This document shows positions 4,763-39,468 of a stretch of DNA of 64,000 nucleotides, in pieces (position 1 is the stretch's first letter; each line of letters begins with the position of its first letter). The stretch covers positions 1,426,001 to 1,490,000 of the forward strand of contig NC_091482.1 of the NCBI RefSeq assembly GCF_036971445.1. Direction: 5' to 3'. A program made the translations under genes and the position numbers. The stretch comes from Narcine bancroftii. Its lineage: Eukaryota. A model generated the notes under the pieces. That model saw only the letters and a list, made by a program, of their open reading frames with translations, did not search any database and was not told where the DNA came from.

Positions 4763-5030
4763 GAGGGTCGAGGCCCGGCCCGCCTCCCCACCTCTGCTCG
4801 CGCGCTCCACGGCGCCTTTGCTGCGGTGCCGCCCGGCCTTGTGCGTCTTCCTGGGCTGTTTAAAAGGCGCCGGGCCTGTGCGGCTCCTGCCTCGCCATCC
4901 CTCAGCAGCAGCCCGAGTGCTCTGCGCCGCGTGGGTGCTTGGGATAGCGGAGGACCGGATGCTTGGGATAGCGGAGGACCGGATGCTTGGGATAGCGGAG
5001 GACCGGGCGGTTTCTCCCGTCCACACCCTC
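4760..5030. promoter_or_regulatory. CpG-island-like putative promoter / first exon region
   Basis: High CpG density, TTTAAAAG at ~4859, adjacent GC-box array, minus-strand donor-like CAGAG|GTGGGG at ~4790, 3x24-bp repeat GCTTGGGATAGCGGAGGACCGGAT at ~4937-5005. Confidence 0.4.
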
Positions 5031-5511: not shown

Positions 5512-6516
5512 TTCTTCTTCAATCTTCTTTCTTTCTTTGGCTTGGCTTCGCGGACGAAGATTTATGGAGGGGGTAAAAAGTCCACGTCAGCTGCAGGCTC
5601 GTTTGTGGCTGACAAGTCCGATGCAGGACAGGCAGACACGATTGCAGCGGTTGCAAGGGAAAATTGGTTGGTTGGGGTTGGGTGTTGGGTTTTTCCTCCT
5701 TTGCCTTTTGTCAGTGAGGTGGGCTCTGCGGTCTTTCTTCAAAGGAGGCTGCTGCCCGCCAAACTGTGAGGCGCCAAGATGCACGGTTTGAGGCGTTATC
5801 AGCCCACTGGCGGTGGTCAATGTGGCAGGCACCAAGAGATTTCTTTAGGCAGTCCTTGTACCTTTTCTTTGGTGCACCTCTGTCACGGTGGCCAGTGGAG
5901 AGCTCGCCATATAATACGATCTTGGGAAGGCGATGGTCCTCCATTCTGGAGACGTGACCCATCCAGCGCAGCTGGATCTTCAGCAGCGTGGACTCGATGC
6001 TGTCGACCTCTGCCATCTCGAGTACCTCGACGTTAGGGGTGTGAGCGCTCCAATGGATGTTGAGGATGGAGCGGAGACAACGCTGGTGGAAGCGTTCTAG
6101 GAGCCGTAGGTGGTGCCGGTAGAGGACCCATGATTCGGAGCCGAACAGGAGTGTGGGTATGACAACGGCTCTGTATACGCTTATCTTTGTGAGGTTTTTC
6201 AGTTGGTTGTTTTTCCAGACTCTTTTGTGTAGTCTTCCAAAGGCGCTATTTGCCTTGGCGAGTCTGTTGTCTATCTCATTGTCGATCCTTGCATCTGATG
6301 AAATGGTGCAGCCGAGATAGGTAAACTGGTTGACCGTTTTGAGTTTTGTGTGCCCGATGGAGATGTGGGGGGGCTGGTAGTCATGGTGGGGAGCTGGCTG
6401 ATGGAGGACCTCAGTTTTCTTCAGCTGACTTCCAGGCCAAACATTTTGGCAGTTTCCGCAAAACAGGACGTCAAGCGCTGAAGAGCTGCTCTGAATGGGC
6501 AACTAAAGCGGCATCG
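5512..6516 (-). mobile_element. 5'-truncated RTE-clade LINE (3' RT/C-terminal region plus tail)
   Basis: KTEVLHQP...FTYLGCTISSDARIDNEIDNRLAKANSAFGRL, C-terminal CxxC...HxxxC, simple-repeat tail; near-identical to 62010-62990. Confidence 0.9.
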
Positions 6517-8968: not shown

Positions 8969-9145
8969 TCAGAGCAGGGATGTCAAAGAGCCACCCACTC
9001 TAGGAGCATCACCCCTGGGGCAATTCACACGGACCATCCAGTCCCGCATGTAGGTCTCCTCCTGACAGGGAATGGATTGGCTCCATGGAGGCGAGCATCC
9101 CAGCGGCACGTTGGGCTCAAAGCAATCCTCAATCTTCACGTAATC
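8969..9145 (-). CDS. RTK-like last exon (DYVKIEDCFEP...TSLL*)
   Basis: ctctaccttcag acceptor, phase 0 matching the upstream exon, TGA stop. Confidence 0.6.
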   Translation of the reverse strand, partial: DYVKIEDCFEPNVPLGCSPPWSQSIPCQEETYMRDWMVRVNCPRGDAPRVGGSLTSLL

Positions 9146-9479
9146 CTGAAGGTAGAGGCATTGCAATATCAGTAAGGGCACTCCGAGGGCTGTCGCCAAG
9201 ATTGAGATCGAGGACCATGGCAAAGGGCCGTCACCATGGTCTGTTACTAAAGGCAAATGCCAAATACGTAATCTCTCAGGGGTTGAGGGGACGACTCAAC
9301 CAGGATACAGACCCTGAGGGGGTGACTCTCCCTGGGGTATAGACCCTGAAGGGGTGACTCTCCCTGGGGTACAGACCCTGAGGGGCCCATCAAGCATATA
9401 CAGTCCATCAACCGAGTGGGAACATTGACCATCCAAGGTCCGTGCCCCTCATGGTCTCGTCCACCTCTCACCCACTCAC

Positions 9480-9579
9480 CGCATCATTTTCCACCACATC
9501 CTCCAGATACCTGGCGATGTCACTGAACACTGGCCGCTCCTCGCTCCTGCTTGTCCAGCAGAACTCCATCACCTCGTAC
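9480..9579 (-). CDS. RTK-like exon, subdomain XI (YEVMEFCWTSRSEERPVFSDIARYLEDVVENDA)
   Basis: cag/gtgagt boundaries; CW....RP.F motif. Confidence 0.9.
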
Positions 9580-10135
9580 CTGGACACAGAGGGAAACCTT
9601 TGCTGACTCATGTTGTGGTTCTGGCCCTACCTTGCCTCGCCATCCCAGGGCACCAGGCTGCAGGCGAGTGGATGCAGAACCCTCCTTCCAAAAGGGAGAG
9701 GCTGGTCCTCGCCTTCCCGAGGCTTGTCACCCCCTGTATGGGGGGGAGGAGGGGCTTGACAGGGTGATGAGGGAAGTGGAAGGGGGAGAGAGGAGGACAG
9801 AGGGAAGAGAGAGGTGAGGGAGAGAAGAGAGAGTGAAGGGGAGAAGCAAGGAAGAGGGAGGGAGGGAATGGAGGGAGGGAGGAGGAGTAAGCGGGGATGA
9901 AAGGGGATGAGGGGGAGATGAGGAGGAAGGGGAAGGTGAGGAGGGGGATGAGGGAGGAGGGGGATGAGGGAGGGGATTGAGGGAGGAGGGGGATGAGGGA
10001 GGGGATTGAGGGAGGAGGGGGATGAGGGAGGGGAAGATGGAGGAAAGGGAGGAGGAGGGAGGGGGATGAGGAGGGGAGATGAAGAGGGAGGGGGATGAGG
10101 AGGGGGAGAGAAGGTCATCGAGGGAGGGTACGTAC

Positions 10136-10235
10136 ATCTCCCGTCGGCACATCAGTGGTGCCGCCATTTTGTATCCAGAGCAGATGTTGATCACCACCTC
10201 CTTTGCTGTTTCAAATCCGGGGTAAGGGGAAGTCC
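10136..10235 (-). CDS. RTK-like exon, subdomain X (GTSPYPGFETAKEVVINICSGYKMAAPLMCRREM)
   Basis: G..PYPG...GY.M..P..C motif; phases 1->2. Confidence 0.9.
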
Positions 10236-10725
10236 CTGTGAGATGAAGGCCCTAGGTCAGTGTGTCAGCAGGAAACTGGCAGAGCATGGGAAGAGGGGCT
10301 CAACTGCTCGAGGGGGTCTTCCTCTGGACCAGACGCAGGGGGCAGGGGGGGGACACTGCCCATGGACCGGTAACAGGCCTGGGGGAGGCGGGGGGTAACA
10401 TTCCTTCTGGACTGGACACAGGGCCTGAGGTAATGCAAGGGAACACTGTTCCTGCATCGGGGACAGATTCTGGCACAGAGTAACGGTCCTCTCTTAATCC
10501 CCAGCCATCTCGACTCCATTCCCGGCAGCCCATGGCGAGGGTTGGTGAGGCTGCAGAATCTGTATTTGGGAGTGTGGTGGGTCAGGACGTAGAACTGTAT
10601 CGACACGGAGAGAAGTTGGCGTTAGCGTTGTGGAGGGGAAGAGTTAGAGTAAAGGAGATGTGAGCAGTGGAGGAGGGGGCAAGTTCGATATCCAGGAACT
10701 GATGAGGAGTAAGCTTATCTCTTAC

Positions 10726-10840
10726 CCAAACTATGCAACTCCCACAACAGAATGCCAAATGCCCAGACGTCTCCCTGAAGATCATAAATCCCGTCGGTGA
10801 AGTACTCTGGGGGATACCAGCGGAACGGGATGCAGGAATT
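10726..10840 (-). CDS. RTK-like exon, subdomains VIII-IX (NSCIPFRWYPPEYFTDGIYDLQGDVWAFGILLWELHSLG)
   Basis: P.RW..PE and DVW.FGILLWE tyrosine-kinase motifs; tag/gtaag; not in the ORF track in this frame. Confidence 0.92.
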
Positions 10841-10877
10841 CTAAACAAAAATCCAACATTCAAAACCGTAGAATTCA

Positions 10878-11446
10878 TGTCTGTCCCTGTGTAACACCGG
10901 GGTACAGTACTGGTGGGGGACAGGTCTGTCCCTGTGTAACACCAGGGTACAGTACTGGTGGGGACAGGTCTGTCCCTGTGTAACACCGGGGTACAGTACT
11001 GGTGGGGACAGGTCTGTCCCTGTGTAACACCGGGGTACAGAACTGGTGGGGAGGGGTCTGTCCCTGTGTAACACCACGGTACAGTACTGGTGGGGACAGG
11101 TCTGTCCCTGTGTAACACCGGGGTACAGTACTGGTGGGGAGGGGTCTGTCCCTGTGTAACACCAGGGTACAGTACTGGTGGGGACAGGTCTGTCACTGTG
11201 TAACACCAGGGTACAGTACTGGTGGGGACAGGTCTGTCACTGTGTAACACCGGGGTACAGTCCTGGTGGGGAGGGGTCTGTCCCTGTGTAACTCCGGGGT
11301 ACAGTACTGGTGGGGAGGGGTCTGTCACTGTGTAACACCAGGGTACAGTACTGGTGGGGACAGGTCTGTCCCTGTGTAACACCAGGGTACAGTACTGGTG
11401 GGGACAGGTCTGTCCCTGTGTAACACCGGGGTACAGTACTGGTGGG
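10878..11446. repeat. 44-bp minisatellite (GTCTGTCCCTGTGTAACACCGGGGTACAGTACTGGTGGGGACAG), ~13 units, intronic
   Basis: Direct periodicity. Confidence 0.93.
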
Positions 11447-11509
11447 GTGGGATCTCTGTGGGGGCCCTTTGCTTTGTCCCCAGCAGACTGATGTTGCCGT
11501 GTTACTCAC

Positions 11510-11641
11510 CCTACTCCCTCTCATCTGTTTCTTTGCCCCAGAAACAGAGATGTCGACGGCCATGCTGAATTCGGCAATTTTACACTCCTGGGGAAAGCGG
11601 CCAACCAGGATATTCCGTGCGGCCAGGTCCCGGTGAACAAT
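11510..11641 (-). CDS. RTK-like exon, subdomains VIb-VII (IVHRDLAARNILVGRFPQECKIAEFSMAVDISVSGAKKQMRGSR)
   Basis: HRDLAARN catalytic loop; 132 bp, phase 0-0; cag/gtgagt. Confidence 0.93.
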
Positions 11642-12120
11642 CTGAAAACAAAGGCAGAATCAATTATCTGACTCCTCCCCACCGAAGCCGCATTAGGTCC
11701 ATCCAAGCCAATCCATGCTGAGCCGGGCCACCCTGGGCCAATCTTTGCCGAGCCAAGCTAAACTGGACAAGTTAAGCTCTACCAGGCCAATGGTTGCACA
11801 TATTCAGCCATGGCCACGAGGCTGTGTCCACAACTCACCCCAGCGCCATGCTGTACCCTGCCATGCCATTCTGAGCTATACCATACTGTTCCTTCCGTCC
11901 CATTCCCAGCCATACTGCACTGTACTACTCTGAGCTATAACATGCTGTACCTGCCCCTTGGGTGCAGTACCATTCCAAGCCATATCGTGCCATTCTATTC
12001 TGAACTGTTCCATGCTATTTTCAGCCCTACCCTGCCGTACCATTTTGACCCATCCCATGCTGTTTCCTGTCGTGCTATACCCTGCTGTGTCACATCTAGC
12101 CCCTCTGCGCTATCCATTAC

Positions 12121-12281
12121 CTTCCTGGAGGCAATGTGTTCCATGCCCAGGGAGATGAAGTATCCAGCCGATGTCAACTTTGATTGCAGTTCCCTGCAGC
12201 CCGACAGCTGAGACCTGTTGCTCTGCAGAAAGCTCTTCAGGTTGTGCCTTCCAACGTGCTCCATGATCAGGATGTAGGGCT
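12121..12281 (-). CDS. RTK-like exon, subdomains V-VIa (EPYILIMEHVGRHNLKSFLQ...GMEHIASRK)
   Basis: P...IME / GM.H.AS.K motifs; phases 1->0. Confidence 0.92.
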
Positions 12282-12564
12282 CTGCAGAACAGCCCAAGGA
12301 CAGGGTCACCAGGTCAGCCACTGATGGACAATCAACTCCTCAGCCTGGCCGATCATTCAGGGAGATCCTGGCTGACCAGTCCAGCCCCACTGCTCTCTCC
12401 TCCCTCCCCATCCCCCATCACCCATGAGGATTCCGTGACACCTTCTTCTCTGCCCCCCCCCCCCCCAACCCGGGATGTGTGGAAACCAGACACAAGACAT
12501 GAGTGTGTGGACGTTGTCCAGATCTGCCTGCAGTATTTGGTTCATGCAGTCTGCAGAGAACAGG

Positions 12565-13255
12565 TGTATTGTCAAGTACAACTTGACGAAACAGCGTTCT
12601 CCAGTCCTCAGTCCAAAACACACAGACACACAACCAGACATCACACACATATGGAGAGACAATACATACTGAGGACAAGTCTTCATTTATACAAATAAAT
12701 AAATGTTTCATGAATATGAAAGTCTCGGAGGATCAATGTGAGCGGTTCCTTTGGTCATTCACCATTCTCACTGCCCATGAGAAGAAGCTGTTCCTCAGCC
12801 TGGTGGTACTGGCTCTGATCCTCCTGGATCTCTTCCCTGAAGGGAGCAGCGAGAAGATGTATGGAAGGGGTCCTCAATGATTTGGCGCACCCTCTTTTGA
12901 CCTCCATTTTTCTGCAGCTACTGTACTGCATGTGATGCAGCCGACCAGGACACTCTTGATGAGCTCCTATAGAAAGTTGACATGATGGTGGGTGGTCACC
13001 TTGCCCACTTCAGTCTTCTCAGGAAGTGCAGTCTTTGTCGCACCTTCCTGACAAGTGAGGAGATGTGTGTTCACGATAGGTCACTAGTTAAGTGAACCTC
13101 AAGGAACTTGGTGTCTCCACTCTCTCCATAACAGGGTTGTTGATGTGTACTGGAGGGTGGTCGTTCCTGGTCCTCCTGAAGTCCACGATCATCTCCTTTG
13201 TCTTGTCCACGTTGAGACTCTCACACCATTTCACGGGATTTTCCACCTCTTCTCC
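12565..13255 (-). mobile_element. Rex1/Babar-like LINE 3' portion
   Basis: Same 3' end as 38965-39395; RT C-terminal remnants on the minus strand. Confidence 0.65.
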
Positions 13256-14011
13256 TTAGTGTGACTCACCAGTGTTACTGATGACCATCCAACCTCCTGC
13301 TTCCCAACATCCAGTCCAACCAGCTGTGGTCAATGTCCTGCCAGAGCAGAGACTGGTGTCACCCTCCAGACACCGGTTACCAGTGACAATGTCTCCATCA
13401 TCTGCCAGCCTATCCACTGTGAACAGGCTGGGTGACCGGTACTCTCCGTGGAAACTATCCCCTCCACTGAGCCCTGCAATCTCTCCCAGGATATATCTGC
13501 ATGGAGGCAGTACAGGGATGATTCATTGGGGTGATATGTGGACAGGTTGCAGCTCGTTGAGGTTATAAATGTGACTGTCATCGAAACATCAGATTGTGAG
13601 GGTGAGAATGAACGAACTTAGTTTTCTGCAGTGGGGAGAGGGGTCTGGGGATGTGATTTGGGTCGGAAGGCAGAGGTATCTGCTTCCCTGCCAACAAGCA
13701 CAGGGTCCCAGACACTGATCACCCTCCCCACATCTGTCCCTGACAGTGACCACTGTGTCCCGGACACTGATCGTCCTCCCCACATCTGTCCCTGCTGGTG
13801 ACCACGGGGTCCCAGACATAGACTGCCCTCACTACATCTGTCCCTGCCAGTAACCACAGGGTCCCGGAGACAGATTGCCCTTCCCACATCTGTCACTGTA
13901 GCCCTAATGGTGTGCAGGGTCCCTGCACAGTAATCTCTACCCTTGCAGTCCAGGAAGGGTTTAAAATGGAGGGGTTACATTGGGGGGATTTACAGTGGAG
14001 AGGGGTCTCAC

Positions 14012-14110
14012 CTTCTAGAACATTCCACTCCAGCAGCTGGACCACATTTCTGTGGTATCCAAGTTTCTTCATAATTTTGATTTCTGACTGTAATATCTTC
14101 TGGGGCATGG
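14012..14110 (-). CDS. RTK-like exon, alphaC-IV (MPQKILQSEIKIMKKLGYHRNVVQLLEWNVLE)
   Basis: E..IMK.LG.H.NVV.LL motif; phases 1->1. Confidence 0.92.
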
Positions 14111-14136
14111 CTGTAGAAACAACTGGAAAGGTCACT

Positions 14137-14495
14137 GTGGGAGGGGCAGTGAGGGAGCTCCACCCTGTGGGAGGGGCGGCAAGGGAGCTCCACGCTGTGG
14201 GAGGGGCGGCAATGAGGGGGCTCCACCCTGTGGGAGAGAAGGTGAGGGAGCTCCACGCCGTGGGAGAGGAGGTGAGGGAGCTCCGCAGCGTTGGGAGGGG
14301 TGGTGAGGAACCTCCATGCCATGGAAGGGGCAAGTGAGGGGGCTCTGCGCCGTGGGAGGGGCGGTGAGGGGGGCTCTGCGCCGTGGGAGGGGCGGTGAGG
14401 GGATCCGTGCCGTGGGAGGGGCGGTGAGGGGGCTCCACCCTGTGAGAGAGGAGGTGAGCGGGCTCCACTCTGTGGGAGGGGTGGTGAGGGGGCTC
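14137..14495. repeat. Degenerate ~30-bp minisatellite (GTGGGAGGGGCGGTGAGGGAGCTCCACGCC)
   Basis: Periodicity; related arrays at 24660-24780, 25840-26035 and inverted at 31950-32880. Confidence 0.8.
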
Positions 14496-14612
14496 TCTAT
14501 CATGGAAAAATCATGAGATGAACTGCAGTATGTGGGCAGGTGATGTGGACAAGAAACAGGCACAGATGAGACGCAAACACAGACAAGATGGTACTGGACA
14601 GGCTTCACTCAC

Positions 14613-14730
14613 TCTTCATGGTGAGCTTGCAGGTGACCAGCCGATAGCCTTTGCAATGACCCCTGGTGACCTTTGCAATGTAGAAGCAGCCATGTTGTCC
14701 AATCTTCAGCACATCAACCAGAGACAGGTC
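14613..14730 (-). CDS. RTK-like exon, subdomains I-II (DLSLVDVLKIGQHGCFYIAKVTRGHCKGYRLVTCKLTMK)
   Basis: cag/gtgagt; VTCK at the VAVK position; phase 0->1 joins the next exon. Confidence 0.85.
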
Positions 14731-14849
14731 CTGGATGGTGGAGCATGTCAGCCGTGGGAACACGGATGGAGAGGCAGGGTCATCCCGAACACATGTGTGC
14801 ACATACACGTGTGCACAGACACACCCGCCCTGTGTACTCAGTAACTCCC

Positions 14850-15642
14850 CAATATCCACAACATTGTGTACACAATTCCCCCCCGATATCCACAACCCTG
14901 TGTACACATTCCCCCCCGATATCCGCAACCCTGTGTACACATTCCCCTCGTATCCACAGCCCTGTGTACACATTCCCCCCCGATATCCACAACCCTGTGT
15001 ACACATTCCCCCCGATATCCGCACCCTGTGTACACATTCCTCCCCGATATCCGCAACCCTGTGTACACATTCCCCCTCGTATCCACAGCCCTGTGTACAC
15101 ATTCCCCCCCGATATCCACAACCCTGTGTACACATTCCCCCTCGTATCCACAGCCCTGTGTACACATTCCCCCCCGATATCCACAGCCCTGTGTACACAT
15201 TCCCCCCCGATATCCACAGCCCTGTGTACAACATTCCCCCCCGATATCCACAACCCTGTGTACACATTCCCCCCCGATATCCACAACCCTGTGTACACAT
15301 TCCCCCCCCGATATCCACAACCCTGTGTACACATTCCCCCCGATATCCACAACCCTGTGTACACATTCCCCCTCGTATCCACAGCCCTGTGTACACATTC
15401 CCCCCCGATATCCACAACCCTGTGTACACATTCCCCCCGATATCCACAACCCTGTGTACACATTCCCCCTCGTATCCACAGCCCTGTGTACACATTCCCC
15501 CCCGATATCCACAACCATGTGTACACATTCCCCCCCGATATCCACAACCCTGTGTACACATTCCCCCCCCGATATCCACAACCCTGTGTACACATTCCCC
15601 CTCACATCCACAACCCTGTGTACACAGTCCCCCTGATATCCA
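14850..15642. repeat. ~33-bp minisatellite (GATATCCACAACCCTGTGTACACATTCCCCCCC), ~24 units
   Basis: Direct periodicity. Confidence 0.93.
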
Positions 15643-15710
15643 CTGCTCTGTGTTTGCAGGGCCCCAGTAACCATAGGCCTCCTGAAATGTCCCTCAGGAT
15701 GTGTGAGTAC

Positions 15711-15880
15711 CTGCATGCTGGGCATCCTCGCTGGTAACTGTGTGCCCGGTAACTTGCTGGTGTGTCCGTGTTGTCGAACCGACTGGTGTAGTGATGGCAG
15801 CACCCTCACCATCGTTGGTCTGCGGGCTCCCCCCAGACACCTACAATCCGTTCACATTTCTCTGCTTCTTCCTCCACTTC
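15711..15880 (-). CDS. RTK-like juxtamembrane exon (KWRKKQRNVNG...); donor uncertain (15810 or 15711); in-frame TAG at 15841-15843
   Basis: gtccag acceptor; basic stop-transfer cluster follows the TM exon. Confidence 0.5.
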
Positions 15881-16431
15881 CTGGACATGGACAGCAAGTG
15901 GGGGTAGTGGTGAATCTGTTCCCGCACCCCCCCTCCTACCCTCCCTGTGGCCACAGCACACTGATGTGGAGATAAGGAGGGGGTACTGGTGATTCCACAC
16001 TCCCTCTATCACCTGGGCACTACCCCTGTGGTCACTAACCCCCAATTTTCACTCTCTACACCCCTTGCGGTCCATTAACCCCCCATCATTCTCTACCCCC
16101 CCCCCCCCTGTGGTCACATGGCAGTGAGGGGAAGCCACATCAGGACCATCACTGCTGGTTGGTCCACATGTGGACCCAACTGCCAGTGGGGGAGAGGAGT
16201 GGTCAGAAAGTGAGCGAGGACCATTCGCTGGCCTTTAGAACAATGATCCTGAGGGCGGGCTTACTCAAGGTGAGGAGATGGGACAGAGTGAACAGGAAGG
16301 GCAGGGACAGGCATTCAGGAACTGCATCCCCTCTCCACCTACTTGAGCAGAGGTGGATGGAACTGACAGCCAGCAATGGGCTGAATGGTCACCCTGTGCT
16401 GTAAACGTCTGTGAATATGGGAGGAACTCAC

Positions 16432-16530
16432 CTCAGGAAGCAGATGGTGAGGCGGCCAGAGTCCCAGCAAGCAAGAGCACAGACAGGACCAGCCAAGGGT
16501 AGTGGTTTGGCTCAGCGAGCCCTGGATCAG
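16432..16530 (-). CDS. RTK-like transmembrane exon (ADPGLAEPNHYPWLVLSVLLLAGTLAA/LTICFLR), apparent 1-bp deletion at ~16451
   Basis: ttttgcag/gtgagt; the hydrophobic helix continues in a shifted frame. Confidence 0.7.
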
Positions 16531-16710
16531 CTGCAAAACAGGGCAGAGTGGGACAGCAAGGAGGGTTGGGAGAGAGGTCCATGGAGACAAGAGGGAGGGA
16601 GGTGTGTGTATGGGATGGGGAGGGGAAGAATGGGGAGGGGAGAGGGAATTGGGGGAGGAAGGGGAGAATGGGGGCAGTTTGATCACTCGGGCAGTAGAGA
16701 TATTTCCCAC

Positions 16711-16735
16711 CGCGGTTACTCTGTAGTGAAAACAT
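16711..16735 (-). CDS. RTK-like 25-bp microexon (MFSLQSNR)
   Basis: gtttcag/gtggga; converts phase 0 to phase 1 as the flanking exons require. Confidence 0.5.
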
Positions 16736-16940
16736 CTGAAACCTCAAAAATATCAGCAGCTTTTGAGATTGTCCACAGTGATTCTGTCTCTCCCTCCCCT
16801 CTCCCCCTTCCCACCATCTTTCCTCCCCTTCCCTCCCCCACTCTGTCCCCTCCTTCCCTCCCCACCATCCTTCCTTCCCCTTCCTTGCCACTGCCTCCCC
16901 TCCATCTTTCCTTCCCCTCCCTCCCCCACCACTCCCTCAC

Positions 16941-17030
16941 CGCCGGTGGAGTGGTGGCTTCCTGCGTCAGGAAAGTGAAGTTGGTGGTGGTCATTCTGTT
17001 GGTCTCCTGGGTTGATGGAGATCTCTCCCA
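16941..17030 (-). CDS. RTK-like Ser/Thr/Pro-rich stalk exon (WERSPSTQETNRMTTTNFTFLTQEATTPPA)
   Basis: CAGTAG tandem acceptor, gtgagg donor, phase 0-0, NFT sequon. Confidence 0.6.
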
Positions 17031-17284
17031 CTACTGGAACAAACAGACACAGTGATTACAGCCCCCACCCAGCCTGCAATGGACCCAGCTCCACATTCCA
17101 CAAACACACCCTCTGAGGGCATCACTCACACATGGTGCAAGCTCCCTGCTCCTGAATCTTCCTTTCCCTCCCTCTCACGCCCATTCCCTCTCTTATCTTT
17201 CTCTTCCTCTTTCTATCCTCTTTACCTCCCTCCCTTTCAACCTCTCATTTTCTTTTTCTCCCACAATCTCAGAACTTTTTGAAT

Positions 17285-18170
17285 AATTTATATTTTTTCA
17301 AGTTATACAGTGGCATTTTAAATATACGATATATTAAACTTTTTCTCATCAACACAACAAACAAAAAACACCCCGTCCCTCCCTCACATTCCCGTTTACT
17401 GTCAGAACCGTGCTTATGTTTGAAGAAGATCGATCGAGGACAGTTGGGAAACCACATTTAAATATATATAATAGTTGCATTATAGTCCTTTTTCCTTTTT
17501 ATTTCTGTATCTGGGCCCCTATGTGGTCCAGTAATGGCTGCCAGGACCTTTTCAAAAGGGTCCTATTTATTCTTTTATGTTGTATGTGATTTTTTTTTCC
17601 ATAGGTATACAGCTGTTCATCACGCTATAATTAGAGGGGAATCGACGTCCAAGTGATCGCGATACATTTTTTCGCTACGACCAGTGCTATTTTTATGATG
17701 TTTGATATTTATTCTTATTTCCTAGAAATTAACTAAGATATTGCACTGGATCGGCCGTGGACGCCACTCCTGTGATCAGGGTTAATTTTTCTGCGATTTC
17801 TTGCCAAAATGGCCTCAATTCCACACATGACCATGTGGCTCGTAGAGAAGTTCCTGCCTCAGTCCTACATCTGAAACACATCTCTGAAATTTCAGCTTTT
17901 GATTTGTGCAACTTTTGGTGGGGTAAGATAGAATTGGTGTAAAAAAAACACTGAACCAGTCCCTATAATTGATGTCGTGCTGTCCTCACACCAATCTGAC
18001 CAGATTCTCTGAAACCACCACCCCAAGTCTGACTCCCAACTTTCCACCGACTTCTGCAACCCTGGTTTTGCACTTTTGCTCTGGAGAGCAGAGTACATTT
18101 TTGTTATAAATTTGGTGTATTTTCCATCCAGACTGTTCGTTCAGTTTCACTAATTTCAGGTGGGGTCCTC
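17285..18170 (-). mobile_element. L1/Tx1-clade LINE 3' end
   Basis: CFRC...W.C..L..FW C-terminal zinc-knuckle remnant; T-rich tail on +. Confidence 0.75.
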
Positions 18171-18344
18171 AATCTCAGAACTTGCTCACAGTCCAACAGT
18201 TCAGTCCTGATTTCCTACATTCCTGCTGGCTCCTGGCTCCTAACCCAACCTCCACATTATATCTGTGCTGGAGTCCATGGGGTAACCAACCAACCACTCA
18301 ACTCTCTCTGACTGTTCTCTGCCACCTCCCACCCCCCCTCCCCC

Positions 18345-19062
18345 ACCACACACTGATCCTCACTATGGGGACAGTTCCACACACAATGACCCTCACTGGG
18401 GGGGGAAGGGTCCACACACACACACTGACCATCACTGGGGGGAACGGGTCCCACACATACTGACCATCAATGGGGGAAGGGTCCCCCACACACTGACCCT
18501 CACTGGGGTTGGGTCTCACACACTGACCATCACTGGGGGGATGGGTCCCATACACACTGACCCTCACTGGGGGGGGAAGGGTCCCCCACACACTGACCCT
18601 CACTGGGAGGACAGGTTCCACACACACTGACCTTCACTGGGGGACCGGGACCACACACACTGATCCTCACCGGGGGGGGGGGGGGGGCGGTCATACACAC
18701 TGAACCTCACTGGGGGACGAGTCCCACACAAACTGACCTCACTGGGGATGGGTCCCACACACCCTGACCCTCACTTGGGGTTGGGTCTCACACACTGACC
18801 TCACTGGGGGGATGGGTCCCATACACACTGACCCTCACTGGGGGGGGGGATGGGTCCCCCACACACTGACCCTCACTGGGAGGACGGGTTCCACACACAC
18901 TGACCTTCACTGGGGGACCGGTCCCACACACACTGATCCTCACCAGGTGGGGGGGGCGGTCCTACACACTGACCCTCACTGGGGGACGAGTCCCACACAA
19001 ACTGACCCTCACTGGGGGATGAGTCCCACACAAACTGACCCTCAATGGGGGATGGGTCCCAT
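18345..19062. repeat. ~33-bp minisatellite (CACACACTGACCCTCACTGGGGGACGGGTCC)
   Basis: Periodicity; same family at 43355-43525, relative at 21790-22405. Confidence 0.88.
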
Positions 19063-19190
19063 GCATCCTTCAGAAGTTTATTGCTTGTTAAGGTGCTGTG
19101 ATGTGAACTGTTGGCTGTGGTCTCCTAGGGTGGGTCAAATCAAAGTGTCACCCCCCCCCCCTTCCCCATCATCATACACACTGAACCTAC

Positions 19191-19290
19191 CTGATTCAGG
19201 GCTGGGCCCCCCTCCTCGAATACCAGACCAAAGCCGGGGAGATTCCTGTCGGGAATGCCACTGGCTGACCTGCTCTCTGAGGTGTGAGAG
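19191..19290 (-). CDS. RTK-like putative ectodomain exon (SHTSESRSASGIPDRNLPGFGLVFEEGGPALNQ)
   Basis: attcag/gtaggt; phase 2->0 compatible; no homology support. Confidence 0.45.
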
Positions 19291-19417
19291 CTGAATTGAT
19301 ATTATGAAGATACTGGTTTCAAACCAAGTCCTTGCTGTCAATTCCCTGCCTCACAGTGGAATCCAGACATTTCCCAGGGAGGGGCACAAGAGGAGATTTA
19401 AAAGCGAATCTTTTTAC

Positions 19418-19472
19418 CTTTGAATGTGTGAGATCCTCCTCTTGATCCTGTCAGTCTTCAGACAGTATGTTG
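19418..19472 (-). CDS. RTK-like putative ectodomain exon (TYCLKTDRIKRRISHIQ)
   Basis: cacag/gtaaaa; phase 1->2 compatible; no homology support. Confidence 0.4.
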
Positions 19473-20744
19473 CTGTGTTGGAAGGAGCTGCCCAGCCCAC
19501 TCACCTCACTGTCCCTCCGCTGCCCTCTCCTCTCTCTCTGCCACCTTCCTATCCTTCCTCTCTTTTCTGCTTGCTGTCCAGCTCTCTGCACCCCACCCAC
19601 CAAACCTCTCTTGCTCACCCACTCCTTCCTCTCTCTGATGCAGCGACAGAAAGTCTCTGACCACTTCCAGCAGTCAGGGCTGCCTCACTCCAGGAGCCTG
19701 TGGTTTCCGCTGCGAGGTGTGTGACCCGACTCTCAGCACCGTAAAGATGGCAATGCTTCATCTCTCAACCACGGATAACATCCTCCAAGGGAAAGATGTT
19801 ACTCAACTGATCTGGGGACAGGTTACTCATATATAACCATATAACCATTTACGGAGGAGAAACAGGCCTCTGGGTCTATCTTGAGAAATCAGTGGATGAG
19901 GAGGGTACCGATCACAGTGGGGGGCAGGCACCTTGATTGCCACCCCCCTTTCTTATAGCCCAGATCACAGTGGGTTTCGGGCAAGTTGTGGGGAGATGGG
20001 AATCCCAGACCAACTGGTCCTGGTGAGTCCAAACCTCATGCGGTGGGATGTGAGGCCAGAGGACTCTTGTGAGGGGAAGGGGGGGGGGGGGGCGCTGAGA
20101 TGACCTGATCTGAGGGTTCCCAGAAGTCAGGACCACTGATGAAAAGGCTGGACCGGTACTGAGGGAGCACAGACCCTCGGAGGTGCCACCTGCTCTCTCA
20201 GGCACTGTGACCACTCCTCTATCACTCTGCCCGAGCTCATCCCACTCTTGTCCTTGAGCCCTTATGTCTGAACCTCTGGGACCAATCCAAATGTCTTTTC
20301 AATATTTTGTCCCTGCCTCTGCCACTTCCTGCTCCACACACCCACTGCCCTCTGTGTGAGGGACCCTCAGACCCCGGTAGATGACAAGGGGGGGACCCAG
20401 CACCGATCCTTGTGGCTCACCACAGGTTACAAGCCTCCACTGGATAGGGTTAGGGATCCACCTGCAGCAGCAGTGGGCATCACCCTGTCAGGAGACAGCG
20501 TTAATCCTCAACCAACATCATGGAACCAGTTGGGTCTGGTCCTTTACAGGTCTGGGATCATTGCTGAGCACGTTTCTTCAGAGACTGCAGAATATTCATG
20601 TGCTACTGAATGTTTGGAAAGCCCAGCAGCGTAGAAAGATTGTAAACCTCTGATTGGGATGCTGGCCACATGATGACCTGAACTGACATCAACCGTGAGA
20701 CAGGGAATGATTAAATCTGTGTGCAAGGAGCAGCCAGATCCTCA

Positions 20745-23158: not shown

Positions 23159-23358
23159 NNNNNNNNNNNNNNNNNNNNNNNNNNNNNNNNNNNNNNNNNN
23201 NNNNNNNNNNNNNNNNNNNNNNNNNNNNNNNNNNNNNNNNNNNNNNNNNNNNNNNNNNNNNNNNNNNNNNNNNNNNNNNNNNNNNNNNNNNNNNNNNNNN
23301 NNNNNNNNNNNNNNNNNNNNNNNNNNNNNNNNNNNNNNNNNNNNNNNNNNNNNNNNNN
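23159..23358. other. Assembly gap, exactly 200 N
   Basis: N run. Confidence 1.
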
Positions 23359-24891: not shown

Positions 24892-25074
24892 GTTGCCCCT
24901 GGCCACAGTCGAAGACTCAACAGTCGGAAGGAGGCTAGTTTATTGGCCGCTGTGGTGCTGATGCAGAAAGTCATTGTCCACTTGTCGGATACCACTCTGA
25001 TGGACATCTTGCCCAAGGTCACCCAGGACCTGCTGCTGCCCGTTGCTGGAGGTTCTTACCTCCCCCCTTGCCAG
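24892..25074 (+). CDS. WDR81: WDR81 exon ([41 protein letters not shown]...), +1 frameshift at ~25043
   Basis: Matches recalled human WDR81 [14 protein letters not shown]...[11 protein letters not shown]; cag/gtaggc. Confidence 0.9.
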
Positions 25075-25598
25075 GTAGGCCCAGTCCCCTCTCATTCTGT
25101 GTGCACACAGAATGCAGCCCCTGCACCTCCCACCTTGTGTGTACACAGAGTGTACGCAGACCCTTGAGGCAGTCAAACATCTGTGATACATGTGATAGGG
25201 CTTGAGTTCAGCATTGTACCTTCCAACCACACACCCCAATGGAAGGGAAGGGGATGTGGCTGTGGGCGAGAGTGAGGGAGTGGATGGCAGTTGAAGGAGG
25301 GGGCTCTACAGGAACCCTACGCAGGACAGATCCCACGGGTGTGGGGTTGGGGAATGCGGGCAGATCCCACGGGTGTGGGGTTGGGGAATGCGGGCAGATC
25401 CCAGGGGTGTGGGGTTGGAGAATGCAGGCAACCCCAAGGGGAGTGGGATTGGGGAATGTGGGTAGAGCCCAGGGGTGTGAGGTTGGGGAACACCGACAGA
25501 TCCCAGGGGTTTGGGGTTGCTGTTGCAATACTGTCCAGTTAGGGGTGACATCTCAGATTGGGGAGGCAACTCAGTGGGTGACGACATATCTCTCTCAG

Positions 25599-25764
25599 CT
25601 TCCCAGGGGGTGCGCAGGGACGCTCTGTACTCGGAATGAAGACCCTCAGCCTTATCGCGCTGCTGTGCCTGAGGATAGGCCAGGAGATGGTGGTGCTCCA
25701 CATGAGTGAGACCCTGCAGCGGTTCTTCGAGGGATTCTCTATCGTTCCAGAGCAGTGGGAGAAG
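25599..25764 (+). CDS. WDR81: WDR81 exon (FPGGAQGRSVLGMKTLSLIALLCLRIGQEMV...WEK)
   Basis: Conserved FP.GAQ.R...KT.SLIAL.CLRIGQEMV; cag/gtgagt. Confidence 0.92.
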
Positions 25765-26159
25765 GTGAGTCCCATTGCACATGGCCATGGGAAGACCCCA
25801 TCCACAGGCTCATCTTTGACGTGTGCTGGAGAAGGAGGTCCGCGCTGTGGGAGGGACGGCGAGGGGGCTCAGCGCAGTCAGAGGGGCGGAAAAGGGGCTC
25901 CACGCTGCAGGAGGGACGGCGAGGGGGATCCGTGCTGAGGGAGGGGTGACGAGGGCGGTCCTTGTCGTGGGTGGGGCGGTGAGGGGGTTCTGTGCCACGG
26001 GAGGGGCAGTGATGGAGCCCTGCACCATGGGAGGGGTGTGGTTTTGCTGACAGTGAGATCCTGCTGTGCTGACAGGCTGCCTGACTGTGGGGTGGGAAGG
26101 TGGGTATGGAGGGGACCCAGGGCTGCTCCCCACTCACCCCCTGGTGCTGGTTCCTACAG

Positions 26160-26298
26160 ATGGGGTTGGGAGAAGGTTCCGGATGGTGGGGAACGGCTGT
26201 GGCGGATGGCTGGGACCCGGCTGCTGTTGAAGAGCTGTGGGAGGTGTTCAACATGGAGATGGCCTTCTCTGCTTACATCCCCTTCAACTGCCTCATCG
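26160..26298 (+). CDS. WDR81: WDR81 exon (...EELWEVFNMEMAFSAYIPFNCLIG)
   Basis: Conserved VF..EMA...Y.PF.CL.G; phases 0->1. Confidence 0.9.
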
Positions 26299-26586
26299 GT
26301 AGGTGCGGGGTGGGCAGGAGGATGGGGGGATCAGAAGGAGAGGGGAGGGGATGGAATGAGAGTGTGTGGATTGTGGAGGAGGCTGGAGGAGGGGCTGGGG
26401 TGGGAATGGGGGGCCCAGTTGTGTGCTTGACTGTGATTTGGTTGGGGGGGGGGGGGTGTCTGTGTCTGTCTGTCTCTCTGTGTGTGTCTCTCTCGCTCTC
26501 CCCCTCCCTCCACATCTCCTCTTCAGCTGACCCCATTCTTTCCCCTTACCTCTATCCCCTGCCCCCGGCTGATCCCTCCCCCACAG

Positions 26587-27285
26587 GTGATGCCACCATC
26601 AAGCAGTTGCTGATGAACCATGAGCTGGTGTGGACGATGGCTGCCCGTTACCAGGAGAGTGTCAGTGGCCAGGCCTCCCAGCCCCCGCTGCCCCCCTCCC
26701 CCACCCTGTCGACCCCCACCCCCTCTCAGCCCCCGCCCGGTGTCACCGGCACCGGCCTGGGTCCCGAGGACGGAGGGAGCAGCACGTTTGGCAGCCCTAT
26801 GGTGGGGAACCGGATCGGGATGGTGCCAGGGACGGAGAGGTCTGCCTCTGGCCCAGGAGTGACCCAGCCCACGGGGATACCAGTGGCAGGGGCACCAGAG
26901 CCCGGCTCCCTGAAGCAGGAGCTGGCACGCAGCAGCCGGCGACTGGACGGCAACTGGCTGGCACACTGGCGGTATCAGGTAGGCCGAGGCCTTCCCGACG
27001 GACACTTCCACTTCCACCAGATCCGGCTGCAGTCCTACACTGGCCACACCGGTACCGTGCGCACCATCACACCGCTGCCCGCCGAGGACTTTTTCCTGAG
27101 CGCCAGCCGGGACAAGACGGTCAAGCTGTGGCCACTGTACAACCACGGGGATGGCTCGGGCAGCGTGGAACCTCGCCTCACCTACGCCCAGCACCGACGT
27201 GCTGTCTTCTCTGCTCAGCCGCTCGGCACTCTGCAGCAAGTGGCCAGCTGTGATGGCAATGTGCACCTCTGGGACCCCTACACTG
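26587..27285 (+). CDS. WDR81: WDR81 exon (LDGNWLAHWRY, HFHFHQIRLQSYTGHTGTVR, first WD40 repeats)
   Basis: 699 bp, phase 1-1; GH...LSASRDKTVKLW WD40. Confidence 0.95.
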
Positions 27286-27524
27286 GTGAGCTGGGGTGGG
27301 AGTGGCAGGTCATTCAGCCCCCTTTCATTACCTCTGCCTTATCTACTCTCATCCCACTGTACCCCTGCCCCAACGTATATTCGTGCCCTCGCGTTCAGAT
27401 CCATTGTGACTGCAGCTCTCGCCCCTCTCCCCGCCCCACGCTCCCCCTGCCCTGCACTCCTCATGTACCCCTGCCCCACGCTTCCCCTCCCCACCCCCAC
27501 CCATCTCCCTGTGCTGTTTTTCAG

Positions 27525-27670
27525 GGAGCACCGTGCGGGTGTTTGACGGTTTCGATTCCCGCACCCCAGTCACTGCTCTGGTGGCCTTGCCAGCTCCACA
27601 CTGCAGCCTCCTGGCTGGGACCTCCGACTCTGTGCTGCACTTCATGGACCCCCGCAAGCCCGGCCTGCAG
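27525..27670 (+). CDS. WDR81: WDR81 exon (STVRVFDG...MDPRKPGLQ)
   Basis: ttcag/gtattc; D.RKPGLQ motif. Confidence 0.93.
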
Positions 27671-28158
27671 GTATTCCTCCTCATCGTCTGCCCCATTCCC
27701 ACCATGTATTCCCCTCCTCAACACCCCTTCCCCCCCCAATCTGACCCCACCTCTCAATGATGGCCTGTCCCAAGGGATGGGGGAAATGTGAGACGGTGAA
27801 TGGGGAGGAGGGGTGGGGGAGGGGGATGTGAGACGGTTGTGGGGGGGTGGGGTGGTTGAGGGAGGTGGTGAGGAGGTTTGGGGCTCCAGGGGAAGAGGTT
27901 TGTGGAGTGTGGAGAGGGCTGCAAGGGGGTCTGGGAGAAGAGGTACCACATGGGTTTGAGGTCCATAGGATGTGGAGGTTCTGTGGGAAGGAGGCACGTG
28001 GTTTGGGGGGTCTGGGGGAAGGGGACCAGGTGGTTTGGGGGGGTCCAGGTGAAGGGGTCTGCGTGGTTTGGGTGATTCGGGTGAAGGAGACAATGGATTT
28101 GGGGAGGGGACCGTGGGTTCAGGCAACCCATAGTGACCCCAATGCCCTTTCCCTGCAG

Positions 28159-28338
28159 CACGCGTTCCGTCTGGGGGTGGGGGCCAGCGCAGGGTTAATC
28201 CGCTCCATGGCCGTCAGTCCCAGTGGCCGCTCTGTTGCCGTGGGCTTCTCCTCGGGGTTCATCTATCTGCTGGACACCCGCACTGGCCTCATCCTCAAGG
28301 TGTGGCCCGCACACGAGAGCGACATCCTCCAGCTGAAG
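28159..28338 (+). CDS. WDR81: WDR81 exon (HAFRLG...[24 protein letters not shown])
   Basis: cag/gtaagc; WD40. Confidence 0.95.
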
Positions 28339-29129
28339 GTAAGCCGGTGAACCCTCCCTCCCTCCCTCCTCCAGGAAGGGGGCGAGGGGGGTGATGGGAG
28401 GAGGGTGCAGTAAGGTGTGAGGGCATTGAGGGTGTTGAGTGGAGGGGGGAATGAGGGGCTGGGAGGGGGATTTGATGGGGGAGGGGAGTGCCTACGAATG
28501 ATGCCAGCTGGCTCCCTCCCTGACCCTCGTCCACCCCTCTGACTTGACCACCACCTTCCCAGGGCCTTTGCCTCCTGCTCCACCATCCCCACAGTGACCT
28601 CCTCTCTCCAGACCCAATTGGAGCAGGGGTGACCACCTGGCCCATCAGCTGTCTGCTCTGACCATTCGTGTCAGCCTCCTCTGGCTGTGCCAAAGCCCCC
28701 TCCCCTCGGAGTGTCCTGAGCTGGAGGTCTCTGCAGCTGGGTTCAACCAGCTTGTCCGGGTGGGATTCCTCTTGCCTCCCCTCACAGCCTCCCCACTGGT
28801 CCATACCCTCCCCTGCAGCCTTCTCTCCCACCCCCCTTCCATCCCTGCCCTTCCCAATACCCTGTGCAGAACTAGAGTACCCAGGGAGCATGCAAACTCC
28901 ACAGCGACAGTGCTGAGACAGGGATCAAACTGGGCTCTCTGGAGCTGGGATCTGGCTGAGCCCCGAAGGGTTGTGGACTGTGAGGGTTAATCGATTGGAG
29001 TTTGAGTTCGAAGGCCCACGTGTGCGTGGGCAAGGACTGTTGTTCCTTTGGTAAAGTTTCACAACAAAGTAAACATGTAGTGGGTGGGTGAGGGGCTCCC
29101 TCAGCAGCCAATGTCCCACTGCATGTCCC

Positions 29130-30232
29130 TCACCCACCTGTACACAACCACCACAATCCCTCACCCACCTATACACAACCACCACCACCCCTGTCCCTCA
29201 CCCATCTATACACAACCACCACAATCCCTCACCCACCTATACACAACCACCACCACCCCTGTCCCTCACCCATCTATACACAACCACCACCACCCCTGTC
29301 CCTCACCCATCTATACACAACCACCACCACCTCTGTCCCTCACCCATCTGTACACAACCACCACCACCCCTGTTACCCCCTCCAGTCCCCTACACCCGCC
29401 CTGTCTCTGTTACCCCCTCCAATCCCCTACACCCTCCCTGTCTCTGTTACCCCCTCCGGTCCCCTATACCCCTCCCTGTCTCTGTAACCCACCCCCCCTC
29501 CGGTCCCCTATACCCCTCCCTGTCTCTGTTACCCTCTCCAGTCCCCTATACCCCTCCCTGTCTCTGTAACCCCCTCCAGTCCCCTATACACCTTTCTGTC
29601 TCTGTAACCCCCTCCAGTCCCCTTTACCCCTCCCTGTCTCTGTTACCTCCATCCCGTCCCCTATACCCCTCCCTGTCTCTGTAACCCACCTCCAGTCCCC
29701 TATACCCCTCCCTGTCTCTGTAACCCCCCCTCTGGTCCCCTGTACCCCTCCCTGTCTCTGTTACCCCCTCCGGTCCCCTACACCCTCCATGTCTCTGTAA
29801 TCCCCTCCGGTCCCCTATACCCTCCCCCTGTCTCTGTAAACCCCTCCAGTCCCCTACACCCTCCCTGTCTCTGTAACCCCCTCTGGTCCCCTACACCCTA
29901 CCTGTCTCTGTTACACCCTCCGGTCCCCTATACCCCTCCCTGTCTCTGTTACCCCCTCCAGTCCCCTATACCCCTCCCTGTCTCTGTTACCCCTTCCAGT
30001 CCCCTACACCCTCCCTGTCTCTGTTACCCCTCCAGTCCCCTATACCCTGCCCCTCCCCCTGTCTCTGTAACCATCTCCAGTCCCCTGCACCCCTCTCTGT
30101 CTCTGTAACATCCTCGGTCCCCTACACCCCTCCCTGTCTCTGTTACCCCCTCCGATCCTCTATACCCCTCCCTTTCTCTGTAACTCCCTCCAGTCCTCTA
30201 CACCCCACCCTATCTCTGTAAACCCCACCCTG
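29130..30232. repeat. Two adjacent C-rich minisatellites (~30-37-bp and ~38-bp units) in the last WDR81 intron
   Basis: CACCCATCTATACACAACCACC... then CCCTCCAGTCCCCTATACCCCTCCCTGTCTCTGTTAC. Confidence 0.88.
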
Positions 30233-30473
30233 CTGGAGGCCGTCCCCTCCCTTCCTCTCCTTTGACTTCATGGGGGGGGGTCTGTGGACAAGTCCTCTCC
30301 CTTCCATGTAATGACAGCTTGTTGGTACCAACCATCTCTATGGCTGATGGGATGAGGAATTTTTTGTTCTGCCTCTCACTGTCCTCTTCCCCCTCACCCT
30401 CCCCTTCCCCACCCCACCTCACCCCTCTTCTCCCTCTCCCCTTTCTCTCCCCCTTCTCTCTCCCTCTCCCCAG

Positions 30474-39395: not shown

Positions 39396-39468
39396 CTGAT
39401 CCATCCGATCTGTGTTTATACTTTGACTCTTGGGCCTGCCTGATCTGATCTGTGTCCAATTTCCACAG

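What the first reader, a model, noticed from the sequence alone, without database searches (positions are those of the whole stretch)
8969..19472. Orphan single-pass receptor tyrosine pseudokinase hidden across ~14 small exons
Seen: phase-consistent exons give a Ser/Thr-rich stalk, TM, KWRKKQR and a full TK fold. The catalytic loop HRDLAARN, beta3 Lys (VTCK) and alphaC Glu (QSEIKIM) are kept. DFG reads EFS (KIAEFSMAVD), the Gly-loop reads KIGQHGCFY, APE reads PPE, and the activation segment has no Tyr. Established: the DFG Asp binds Mg2+, and DFG alteration typifies pseudokinases such as PTK7 and STYK1. Inference: a scaffold or decoy receptor with no clear human ortholog I recognise, perhaps related to STYK1/RET/Cad96Ca-like fish genes. 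This is the best candidate for novel biology in the window.
Basis: partly seen in the sequence, partly recalled or inferred. Interest (0 to 1): 0.75.

Follow-up and report, generated by a model that had tools for sequence, protein, structure and literature searches.

The report
Ancient self-plugged receptor tyrosine pseudokinase
This electric-ray gene encodes a spliced membrane protein with almost no outside domain and a tyrosine-kinase fold that is predicted to be catalytically dead and to plug its own ATP pocket; the same changes are kept from sharks to crocodilians, so it is likely an overlooked vertebrate signalling scaffold and not a decaying gene.

Summary
The gene is real. It lies on the minus strand and has 12 exons (11 coding), not ~14. 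Spliced contigs confirm it. Three one-base assembly errors break its 5' frame; corrected, it encodes 441 aa with a short sequon-bearing stalk, no signal peptide, one TM helix and a TK fold. The database model (P0001, 367 aa) lacks the TM.

It is not an orphan. It is the ray member of one clade (si:ch211-167j9.5, auto-labelled 'Cad96Ca') spanning cartilaginous fish, ray-finned fish, coelacanth, lungfish, salamanders, caecilians and crocodilians. DFG Asp is Glu in 156 of 158 aligned members, so this is not local decay.

The beta2 adenine-cap Val is Phe (144 of 156), the change engineered to make ATP-blocked kinases. The beta3 Ala is Thr and the first Gly-loop Gly is Lys. The Lys-Glu pair, the R-spine residues and a tail Tyr aligning with FGFR1's are kept.

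Best reading: an ATP-occluded pseudokinase held in an active-like shape, likely acting with an active RTK. The partner is untested, and identity with Brunet's Styk1-like is unresolved.

The parts
19418..19856 (-). Exon 1, 5' UTR; its 5' end is not defined (contigs run on to at least 20500)
   Evidence: joint 17033/19418 in X5, X6, X8; contig extent; in-frame stop upstream of the ATG
16941..17033 (-). Exon 2: ATG at 16994, Thr-rich stalk with N-glycosylation sequons at N5 and N15; the assembly lacks one base near 16951
16432..16530 (-). Exon 3: transmembrane helix (best 19-residue hydropathy 2.39, residues 33-51); the assembly lacks one base at 16452
   Evidence: (RNA-type and DNA runs)
15711..15880 (-). 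Exon 4: basic stop-transfer RKWRKKQR and juxtamembrane segment; the assembly has one extra base at 15851; holds Met75, where database model P0001 starts
14613..14730 (-). Exon 5: beta1-beta3. Gly-loop K117 (14706), beta2 F124 (14685, adenine-cap Val site), beta3 T141 and K143
14012..14110 (-). Exon 6: alphaC with E157, beta4
12121..12281 (-). Exon 7: beta5, hinge, alphaD-alphaE
11510..11641 (-). Exon 8: catalytic loop HRDLAARN, family-specific FP insertion, EFS (E258 at 11572), Tyr-free activation segment
   Evidence: (100% identical to P0001)
10726..10840 (-). Exon 9: RWYPPE, alphaF
10136..10235 (-). Exon 10: alphaG region
9480..9579 (-). Exon 11: alphaH-alphaI
8969..9145 (-). Exon 12, coding part: conserved tail Y385 (9142), lineage-specific frame change near 9034, stop at 8971-8969; 3' UTR continues below 8500

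Best explanation
It is a spliced single-pass membrane protein with a roughly 30-residue outer stalk and a tyrosine-kinase fold that is predicted to be catalytically dead and ATP-occluded, and it likely works as a ligand-independent scaffold or allosteric partner of an active receptor tyrosine kinase.

Shown: the gene model, the TM helix, the short stalk across the family, and family-wide fixation of Phe at the beta2 adenine-cap site, Thr at the beta3 Ala site, Lys at the first Gly-loop Gly and Glu at the DFG Asp, with the beta3 Lys, alphaC Glu, R-spine residues, catalytic Asp/Asn and tail Tyr retained.

Inferred, step by step: (1) Insertion is N-out without a signal peptide (sequons before the TM, basic residues after it). 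(2) Phe124 stands in for the adenine ring and closes the C-spine, so the domain sits in an active-like shape without ATP (about 0.75). (3) There is no useful phosphotransfer (about 0.9). (4) Having no ligand-binding domain, it pairs in the membrane with an active RTK, supports it and is phosphorylated by it on Tyr385, which then docks an SH2 protein of the PLC-gamma type (about 0.5).
For: Gene and topology. Among 126 family proteins with a detectable TM, the median stalk is 23 aa (range 4-146), 101 carry a sequon before the TM, and 6 have a second hydrophobic stretch.

Census of 165 family proteins (isoforms, fragments and many teleosts included; gaps excluded from n): DFG Asp site Glu 156/158 (the other 2 are misaligned truncated models); first Gly site Lys 153/154; beta3 Lys 157/158; alphaC Glu 160/161; catalytic Asp 154/159; Asn 159/159. 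Ala site Thr 156/158. Val site Phe 144/156, plus Tyr 4, Leu 6, Ile 1, Arg 1; R-spine sites Met/Leu 161/161 and Leu 158/161. Lineage-balanced panel of 30 against 64 related control RTKs: Phe 28/30 vs Val 95%; Thr 30/30 vs Ala 97%; Lys 30/30 vs Gly 95%; Glu 30/30 vs Asp 98%. The model (pLDDT 82.6) puts the Phe in beta2, two residues after the third Gly.

Precedent: Val-to-Phe at this site abolished activity in PKC and Akt1 and is modelled as an adenine surrogate; the same passages report that Ala-to-Phe in KSR1 kept scaffolding (PMC12721161). Asp-to-Glu alone removed measurable activity from twitchin kinase (PMC4042850). No active human kinase breaks the small-hydrophobic rule at the beta3 Ala site, while 10 pseudokinases have Ser/Thr there (PMC2639636).

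Tail Tyr: present in 135 of 142 aligned members, mostly followed by [VI]-x-[VIL], and aligned with the Tyr of FGFR1 SNQEYLDL. STYK1, which has the same architecture, interacts with mutant EGFR (PMC9287553, abstract).
Against: No binding, activity or partner was measured. Strict conservation of an acidic Glu together with Lys, Glu, Asp and Asn could mean residual catalysis; the same point is raised for titin kinase (PMC12862963). Six catfish-paralogue proteins have Leu and a skate has Ile at the Phe site, so Phe is not absolutely required. Leu/Val/Ile/Met at the beta3 Ala site are tolerated by active kinases. In PKC the Phe mutants were less autoinhibited, so 'active-like' is not guaranteed in every fold. 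That the FGFR1 Tyr binds PLC-gamma is recalled; only a PDB title for FGFR2 (5eg3) touches it.
Confidence: 0.55

Rival explanations
1. Inhibitory decoy: it is dead and ATP-occluded as above, but it pairs with an active RTK to block trans-phosphorylation or to sequester SH2 proteins, and so damps signalling.
For: Same anatomy. The activation-loop Tyr found in 97% of controls is absent from the family column, and 138 of 152 complete activation segments have no Tyr at all, as expected of a non-reciprocating partner.
Against: A pure decoy would not need the Lys-Glu pair and R-spine residues held this strictly; inference.
Confidence: 0.2
2. Membrane adaptor that acts without an RTK partner, for example in trafficking or as a platform for Ser/Thr kinases or cytoplasmic tyrosine kinases; the basic, Ser-rich activation segment would be the regulated surface.
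For: Activation segments are basic and Ser/Thr-rich (median 8 Lys/Arg and 4 Ser/Thr). New invariant surface motifs (FP insertion, RWYPPE, TC) suggest a new binding face. Other elasmobranchs end in a conserved W[LF]DSV tail (10 of 10 full-length records), which looks like a PDZ-type ligand (recalled).
Against: The tail Tyr at the FGFR1 position is kept family-wide. The DSV end is lost in this ray and absent outside elasmobranchs in the sequences seen.
Confidence: 0.13
3. Atypical active kinase: Glu replaces Asp for metal binding, and the new Gly-loop lysines compensate, giving low or conditional activity.
For: Catalytic Asp/Asn and the Lys-Glu pair are nearly invariant. Gly-loop position 4 is Lys or Arg in 147 of 156. 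Titin authors speculate the same for their fixed Glu.
Against: Asp-to-Glu and Val-to-Phe each inactivated other kinases on their own, and two more ATP-site changes are stacked on them. The HRD Arg is lost in most members (Cys 122, Arg 26 of 160). Four catfish-paralogue proteins have Asn for the catalytic Asp.
Confidence: 0.1
4. Decaying gene or pseudogene in this ray, with frameshifts in the 5' exons.
For: As assembled, the frame stops after 75 codons. The tail frame change and a 7-residue juxtamembrane loss are real and lineage-specific. The ray's branch is longer than its relatives' (0.18 vs 0.06-0.08).
Against: Reads correct all three 5' breaks, two of them in DNA runs too, and the transcript is fully spliced. 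The kinase domain is 71-76% identical to a shark and a skate orthologue.
Confidence: 0.02

Closest known systems
si:ch211-167j9.5 orthogroup (NCBI automatic labels 'tyrosine kinase receptor Cad96Ca', 'FGFR homolog 1')
   Same: This is its ray member: P0001 is identical to exon 8 and is the last 367 residues of the corrected protein. UniRef rows named Si:ch211-167j9.5 fall in the family. One clade, 100/100.
   Different: The database model lacks the TM and stalk because of assembly errors. This species has EFS instead of EFG, a 7-residue shorter juxtamembrane segment and a frame-shifted tail. No paper on the family was found.
STYK1/NOK, and the 'Styk1-like' gene of Brunet et al. 2016 (PMC4898815)
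   Same: Single-pass pseudokinase of similar length with a very short ectodomain (22 aa in STYK1; PMC13259870). A STYK1 cluster ranks third by language-model features for the coelacanth orthologue (a lead only). Styk1-like is reported in non-amniote jawed vertebrates and missing from human.
   Different: The inactivating changes differ: STYK1 has GLG, Arg at the alphaC Glu, Ile at the beta2 Val and beta3 Ala sites, and an APE motif. By eye, human STYK1 shares 2 of about 17 comparable family-signature residues (alignment row). Styk1-like is said to be lost in all amniotes, whereas this family is in four crocodilians. No displayed source name or 47 says STYK1.
FGFR / RET / Tie / arthropod Cad96Ca group of RTKs
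   Same: Best solved-sequence and fold matches are FGFR1-3, then KIT and PDGFRA (about 30-33% identity in the fold matches). The tail Tyr aligns with that of FGFR1.
   Different: No Ig, cadherin or other ectodomain, no activation-loop Tyr pair, altered ATP site. Grouping with Cad96Ca or FGFR-like rows is rejected only narrowly.
Titin kinase (EFG pseudokinase)
   Same: Fixed Glu at DFG, together with a changed beta3 Ala site, across vertebrates.
   Different: It is a cytoplasmic sarcomere domain of another kinase group, with an intact Gly loop in mammals and Met rather than Thr at beta3; the resemblance is convergent (inference).
Engineered and cancer C-spine pseudokinases (PKC V356F, Akt1 V164F, BRAF V471F, KSR1 A587F) and VRK3
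   Same: Phe at the beta2 Val site; a self-completed C-spine with the Lys-Glu pair kept.
   Different: Here the substitution is the natural, conserved state of a receptor family. ATP exclusion has not been measured.

Membership tests
Receptor tyrosine kinase superfamily | TK domain behind a single TM helix | tested here: met
   PF07714 E 4e-58; TM in the corrected frame and in orthologues; fold matches FGFR/KIT
Pseudokinase (sequence definition) | loss of the beta3 Lys, HRD Asp or DFG Asp | tested here: met
   DFG Asp replaced by Glu, 156/158
Pseudokinase (functional) | no phosphotransfer; no ATP binding | not testable with these tools
   inferred
si:ch211-167j9.5 orthogroup | one clade with shared K-x-G, TCK, FP, EF[GS] and RWYPPE signature | tested here: met
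STYK1/NOK | very short ectodomain plus TM | tested here: met
STYK1/NOK | GLG motif and Arg at the alphaC Glu | tested here: not met
   EF[GS] and Glu kept; STYK1 motifs
STYK1/NOK (including Styk1-like) | groups with STYK1 in a kinase-domain tree; paralogon synteny | not tested
   no STYK1 row in my trees; Brunet supplement not readable
Styk1-like (Brunet 2016) | absent from all amniotes | tested here: not met
   Crocodylus, Gavialis and two Alligator species carry it; crocodilians may not have been in their sample
Cad96Ca/Stitcher | cadherin-type ectodomain and canonical DFG (cadherin feature recalled; cluster name) | tested here: not met
   only kinase Pfam families; median stalk 23 aa
Cad96Ca/Stitcher | one clade with arthropod Cad96Ca-type kinases | tested here: inconclusive
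   not joined in the free tree; AU p 0.046 with a long stem; the six rows were picked after an earlier tree
FGFR | Ig ectodomain, activation-loop Tyr pair | tested here: not met
   AU p 0.037 against invertebrate FGFR-like rows only

The most novel reading that the evidence does not exclude
This is a 64th jawed-vertebrate RTK and a subfamily of its own, missed by the published census and lost in humans. It would be a natural receptor whose kinase domain is fixed by evolution in the 'C-spine-fused' state that biochemists engineer, acting as a constitutive, ligand-free allosteric activator and PLC-gamma-type docking module for FGFR/VEGFR-class receptors in fish, amphibians and crocodilians.
Probability: 0.3. 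Interest if true: 0.72.

Novelty: new variant of a known kind. Interest (0 to 1): 0.52.

Why it matters
Vertebrate RTK inventories are human-centred. A receptor pseudokinase kept since the origin of jawed vertebrates, present in teleost models and misnamed in databases, is a missing piece of fish and amphibian signalling that can be knocked out directly. Its fixed Phe at the adenine cap, plus Glu at DFG with an intact Lys-Glu pair, make it a natural test of whether a self-filled C-spine supports scaffolding, and a second vertebrate case of the unexplained conserved EFG Glu. The case also shows three single-base assembly errors turning a receptor into an apparent cytoplasmic kinase in the annotation.

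Tried and rejected
No whole genome is held for this window. No RNA holder is on record; X5-X8 are guessed RNA, from one study, and I treat them as transcripts only because they carry exon joints that the DNA runs lack. They say nothing on tissue or level.

Single-sequence fold: pLDDT 33, discarded. A search of solved structures with the tail alone did not reach the Tyr; the profile search did. Rfam: 0 matches in the window. Candidate mini-exons near 16735 are skipped by the contigs and were rejected. My first idea, that Gly-loop lysines allow metal-free ATP binding, was demoted after finding Phe124 and Thr141.

Literature: 'ch211-167j9.5' 0 papers; 'Cad96Ca'+'fish' 25 papers, 23 listed, none on a vertebrate gene by title; 'styk1-like' and NOK/amphioxus searches return only Brunet 2016; searches gave no description of the family by title or abstract start. 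The electric-eel TK census has 0 hits for '167j9' or 'cad96' in 5 supplements, although that species has family proteins (P0287, P0203); I read part 2 of 2 of its Table S1 only. Challa and Chatti 2013 is not held. Earlier scan findings: none.

No frog, turtle, squamate, bird or mammal member was returned, but these searches are word-limited (Danio rerio itself was not listed) and one search shows only 50% representatives, so loss in those groups is not shown. The sister grouping with five invertebrate RTKs (four named as molluscan, one unnamed; 96 in the quick tree, 93/84 unstarred in the careful tree) is not trusted because of the long stem. No complex prediction was run: no vertebrate candidate partner was among the sequences retrieved.


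Full report
Observation. Exon 8 is identical to P0001, labelled 'tyrosine kinase receptor Cad96Ca [Narcine bancroftii]', 367 aa. Contigs of runs X5-X8 (guessed RNA, one study) show joints at 10 of 11 introns, at depth 0 in the DNA run laid beside them; the last intron fits by contig arithmetic. The gene has 12 exons, 11 coding. The assembly differs from the reads by one base at 15851, at 16452 and near 16951. The first two are in DNA runs as well; the third is shown only in the RNA-type joints. Only all three together open the frame, giving 441 aa against 50-75 aa for the other 7 combinations, and P0001 is the last 367 residues of it. So the 5' exons are not phase-consistent in the assembly, and the database model has lost its TM.

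Anatomy. The protein has a stalk of about 30 residues with two sequons and no signal peptide, a TM helix, a basic stop-transfer run, a juxtamembrane segment, a TK domain and a 57-residue tail. Pfam finds only kinase families. A model from a 134-row alignment has pLDDT 82.6 and matches FGFR, KIT and PDGFRA kinase domains. Short stalks are family-wide: median 23 aa in the 126 proteins with a detectable TM out of 163 screened, 101 with a sequon.

Family. Three protein searches and one full HMMER search returned members from sharks, rays, chimaera, bichir, sturgeons, bowfin, gar, many teleosts (some with two paralogues), coelacanth, lungfish, three salamanders, three caecilians and four crocodilians. 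Two UniRef rows are named Si:ch211-167j9.5. The family is one clade in a 70-row quick tree and a 36-row careful tree (100/100, stem 1.11), with cartilaginous fish apart from bony vertebrates. Kinase-domain identity to the ray is 76% for skate, 54% for coelacanth and 49% for crocodile. No frog, turtle, squamate, bird or mammal row appeared, which these searches cannot turn into proof of loss. For human, PMC4042850 states that titin kinase is the only human kinase with Glu at DFG.

Catalytic site. In 165 family proteins the DFG Asp site is Glu in 156 of 158 aligned; EFG is the common form (142) and EFS the minority (15), mostly elasmobranchs. Comparing 30 lineage-balanced members with 64 related RTKs exposed three more fixed changes: first Gly-loop Gly to Lys (30/30), beta2 Val to Phe (28/30) and beta3 Ala to Thr (30/30). 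The Val and Ala cap the adenine ring. Val-to-Phe abolished activity in PKC and Akt1 and is modelled as an adenine surrogate. Asp-to-Glu alone silenced twitchin kinase. Ser/Thr at the Ala site marks human pseudokinases. Meanwhile the beta3 Lys, alphaC Glu, catalytic Asp and Asn, and the R-spine residues are nearly invariant. Against the reading: Leu or Ile replaces the Phe in 7 proteins, and strict conservation of the Glu could hide weak catalysis.

Mechanism (inferred). A self-filled pocket with the Lys-Glu pair intact points to a stable, active-like, ATP-free domain. With no ligand-binding ectodomain, it must act in the membrane with another protein. The Tyr after alphaI is kept in 135 of 142 aligned members and aligns with the FGFR1 tail Tyr, recalled as the PLC-gamma site. 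I therefore favour a scaffold or allosteric partner that an active RTK phosphorylates (0.55), over an inhibitory decoy (0.2), an RTK-independent adaptor (0.13), an atypical active kinase (0.1) and decay (0.02). No partner or activity was tested.

Comparison with what is known. It probably works like STYK1, a short-ectodomain receptor pseudokinase reported to bind mutant EGFR, but it fails the STYK1 motif test and shares about 2 of 17 signature residues by eye. Brunet et al. list 63 jawed-vertebrate RTKs, including a Styk1-like gene lost in amniotes. Their supplement was not readable and would settle whether this is that gene. Crocodilian members and the lack of any STYK1 label argue against; I put identity at about 0.3. 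It is not Cad96Ca or FGFR by ectodomain or motifs, and tree tests reject those groupings only narrowly. No STYK1, RET, TIE or named vertebrate FGFR row was in the trees, so its nearest vertebrate relative is open.

Lineage-specific points. Ten of ten other full-length elasmobranch records end in W[LF]DSV. In this ray a frame change near 9034 bypasses the old stop at 9027-9025 and extends the tail; four runs match the assembly there without gaps. Seven juxtamembrane residues are also missing, and similar codons sit just upstream of the exon 5 acceptor, suggesting a shifted splice site.

Context. A WD40 gene and two serpin genes follow on the plus strand; the names WDR81, SERPINF2 and SERPINF1 are my recall from their sequences. 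A 200-N gap at 23159-23358 separates them from the kinase gene, so adjacency is not shown by continuous sequence. A bichir model fuses the kinase to POLDIP2 and a remora model carries the name 'sigma intracellular receptor 2', which hints at a conserved neighbourhood (human positions recalled, not tested).

Papers seen. Passages plus one section: PMC4042850, PMC2639636, PMC4898815. Passages only: PMC12721161, PMC12862963, PMC13259870, PMC4718504. Passages plus supplement hits: PMC8662651, and PMC7249569 (also part 2 of Table S1). Abstract and outline: PMC9287553. The claim 'not described in print' rests in an open-access library only.

Verdict. A real, conserved, spliced and apparently uncharacterised vertebrate receptor pseudokinase with a distinctive self-plugging signature: a new variant of a known kind, interest 0.52.

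Noticed in passing
window 24893-30794 (+): Exons of a WD40 protein (Pfam WD40 E 2e-10), recalled as the 3' part of WDR81; I saw no 5' BEACH exons before the 200-N gap at 23159-23358, so part of the gene may be missing or misplaced in the assembly.
   Followed up: partly
window 39427-46471 (+) and 60506-60901 (+): Two serpin genes (Pfam Serpin), recalled as SERPINF2-like and SERPINF1-like.
   Followed up: partly
window 9025-9040 (-): Lineage-specific frame change removes the W[LF]DSV end conserved in other elasmobranchs; four runs agree with the assembly here.
   Followed up: partly
window 14731-14751 (-): Seven codons resembling the orthologous juxtamembrane residues lie just upstream of the used acceptor, suggesting a splice-site shift in this lineage.
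   Followed up: partly
window 4770-4940 (+): End of a CpG-rich stretch with a TATA-like TTTAAAA and a possible splice donor near 4932; perhaps the first exon of an unrecognised plus-strand gene.
   Followed up: no
window 19418-19856 (-): Further one-base differences between reads and assembly at 19546, 19666 and 19765 show that this region is error-rich; neighbouring gene models may be affected too.
   Followed up: no
window 5711-6502 (-) and 61666-63006 (-): Two near-identical reverse-transcriptase-like LINE fragments; identity as LINE is recalled.
   Followed up: no
P0071, P0074, P0078, P0086 (catfish): A teleost paralogue has degraded further: Asn for the catalytic Asp and Leu at the Phe site.
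   Followed up: partly
window 8992: A one-base variant in the last coding exon in runs X5 and X6 but not X7 or X1; probably an allele.
   Followed up: no
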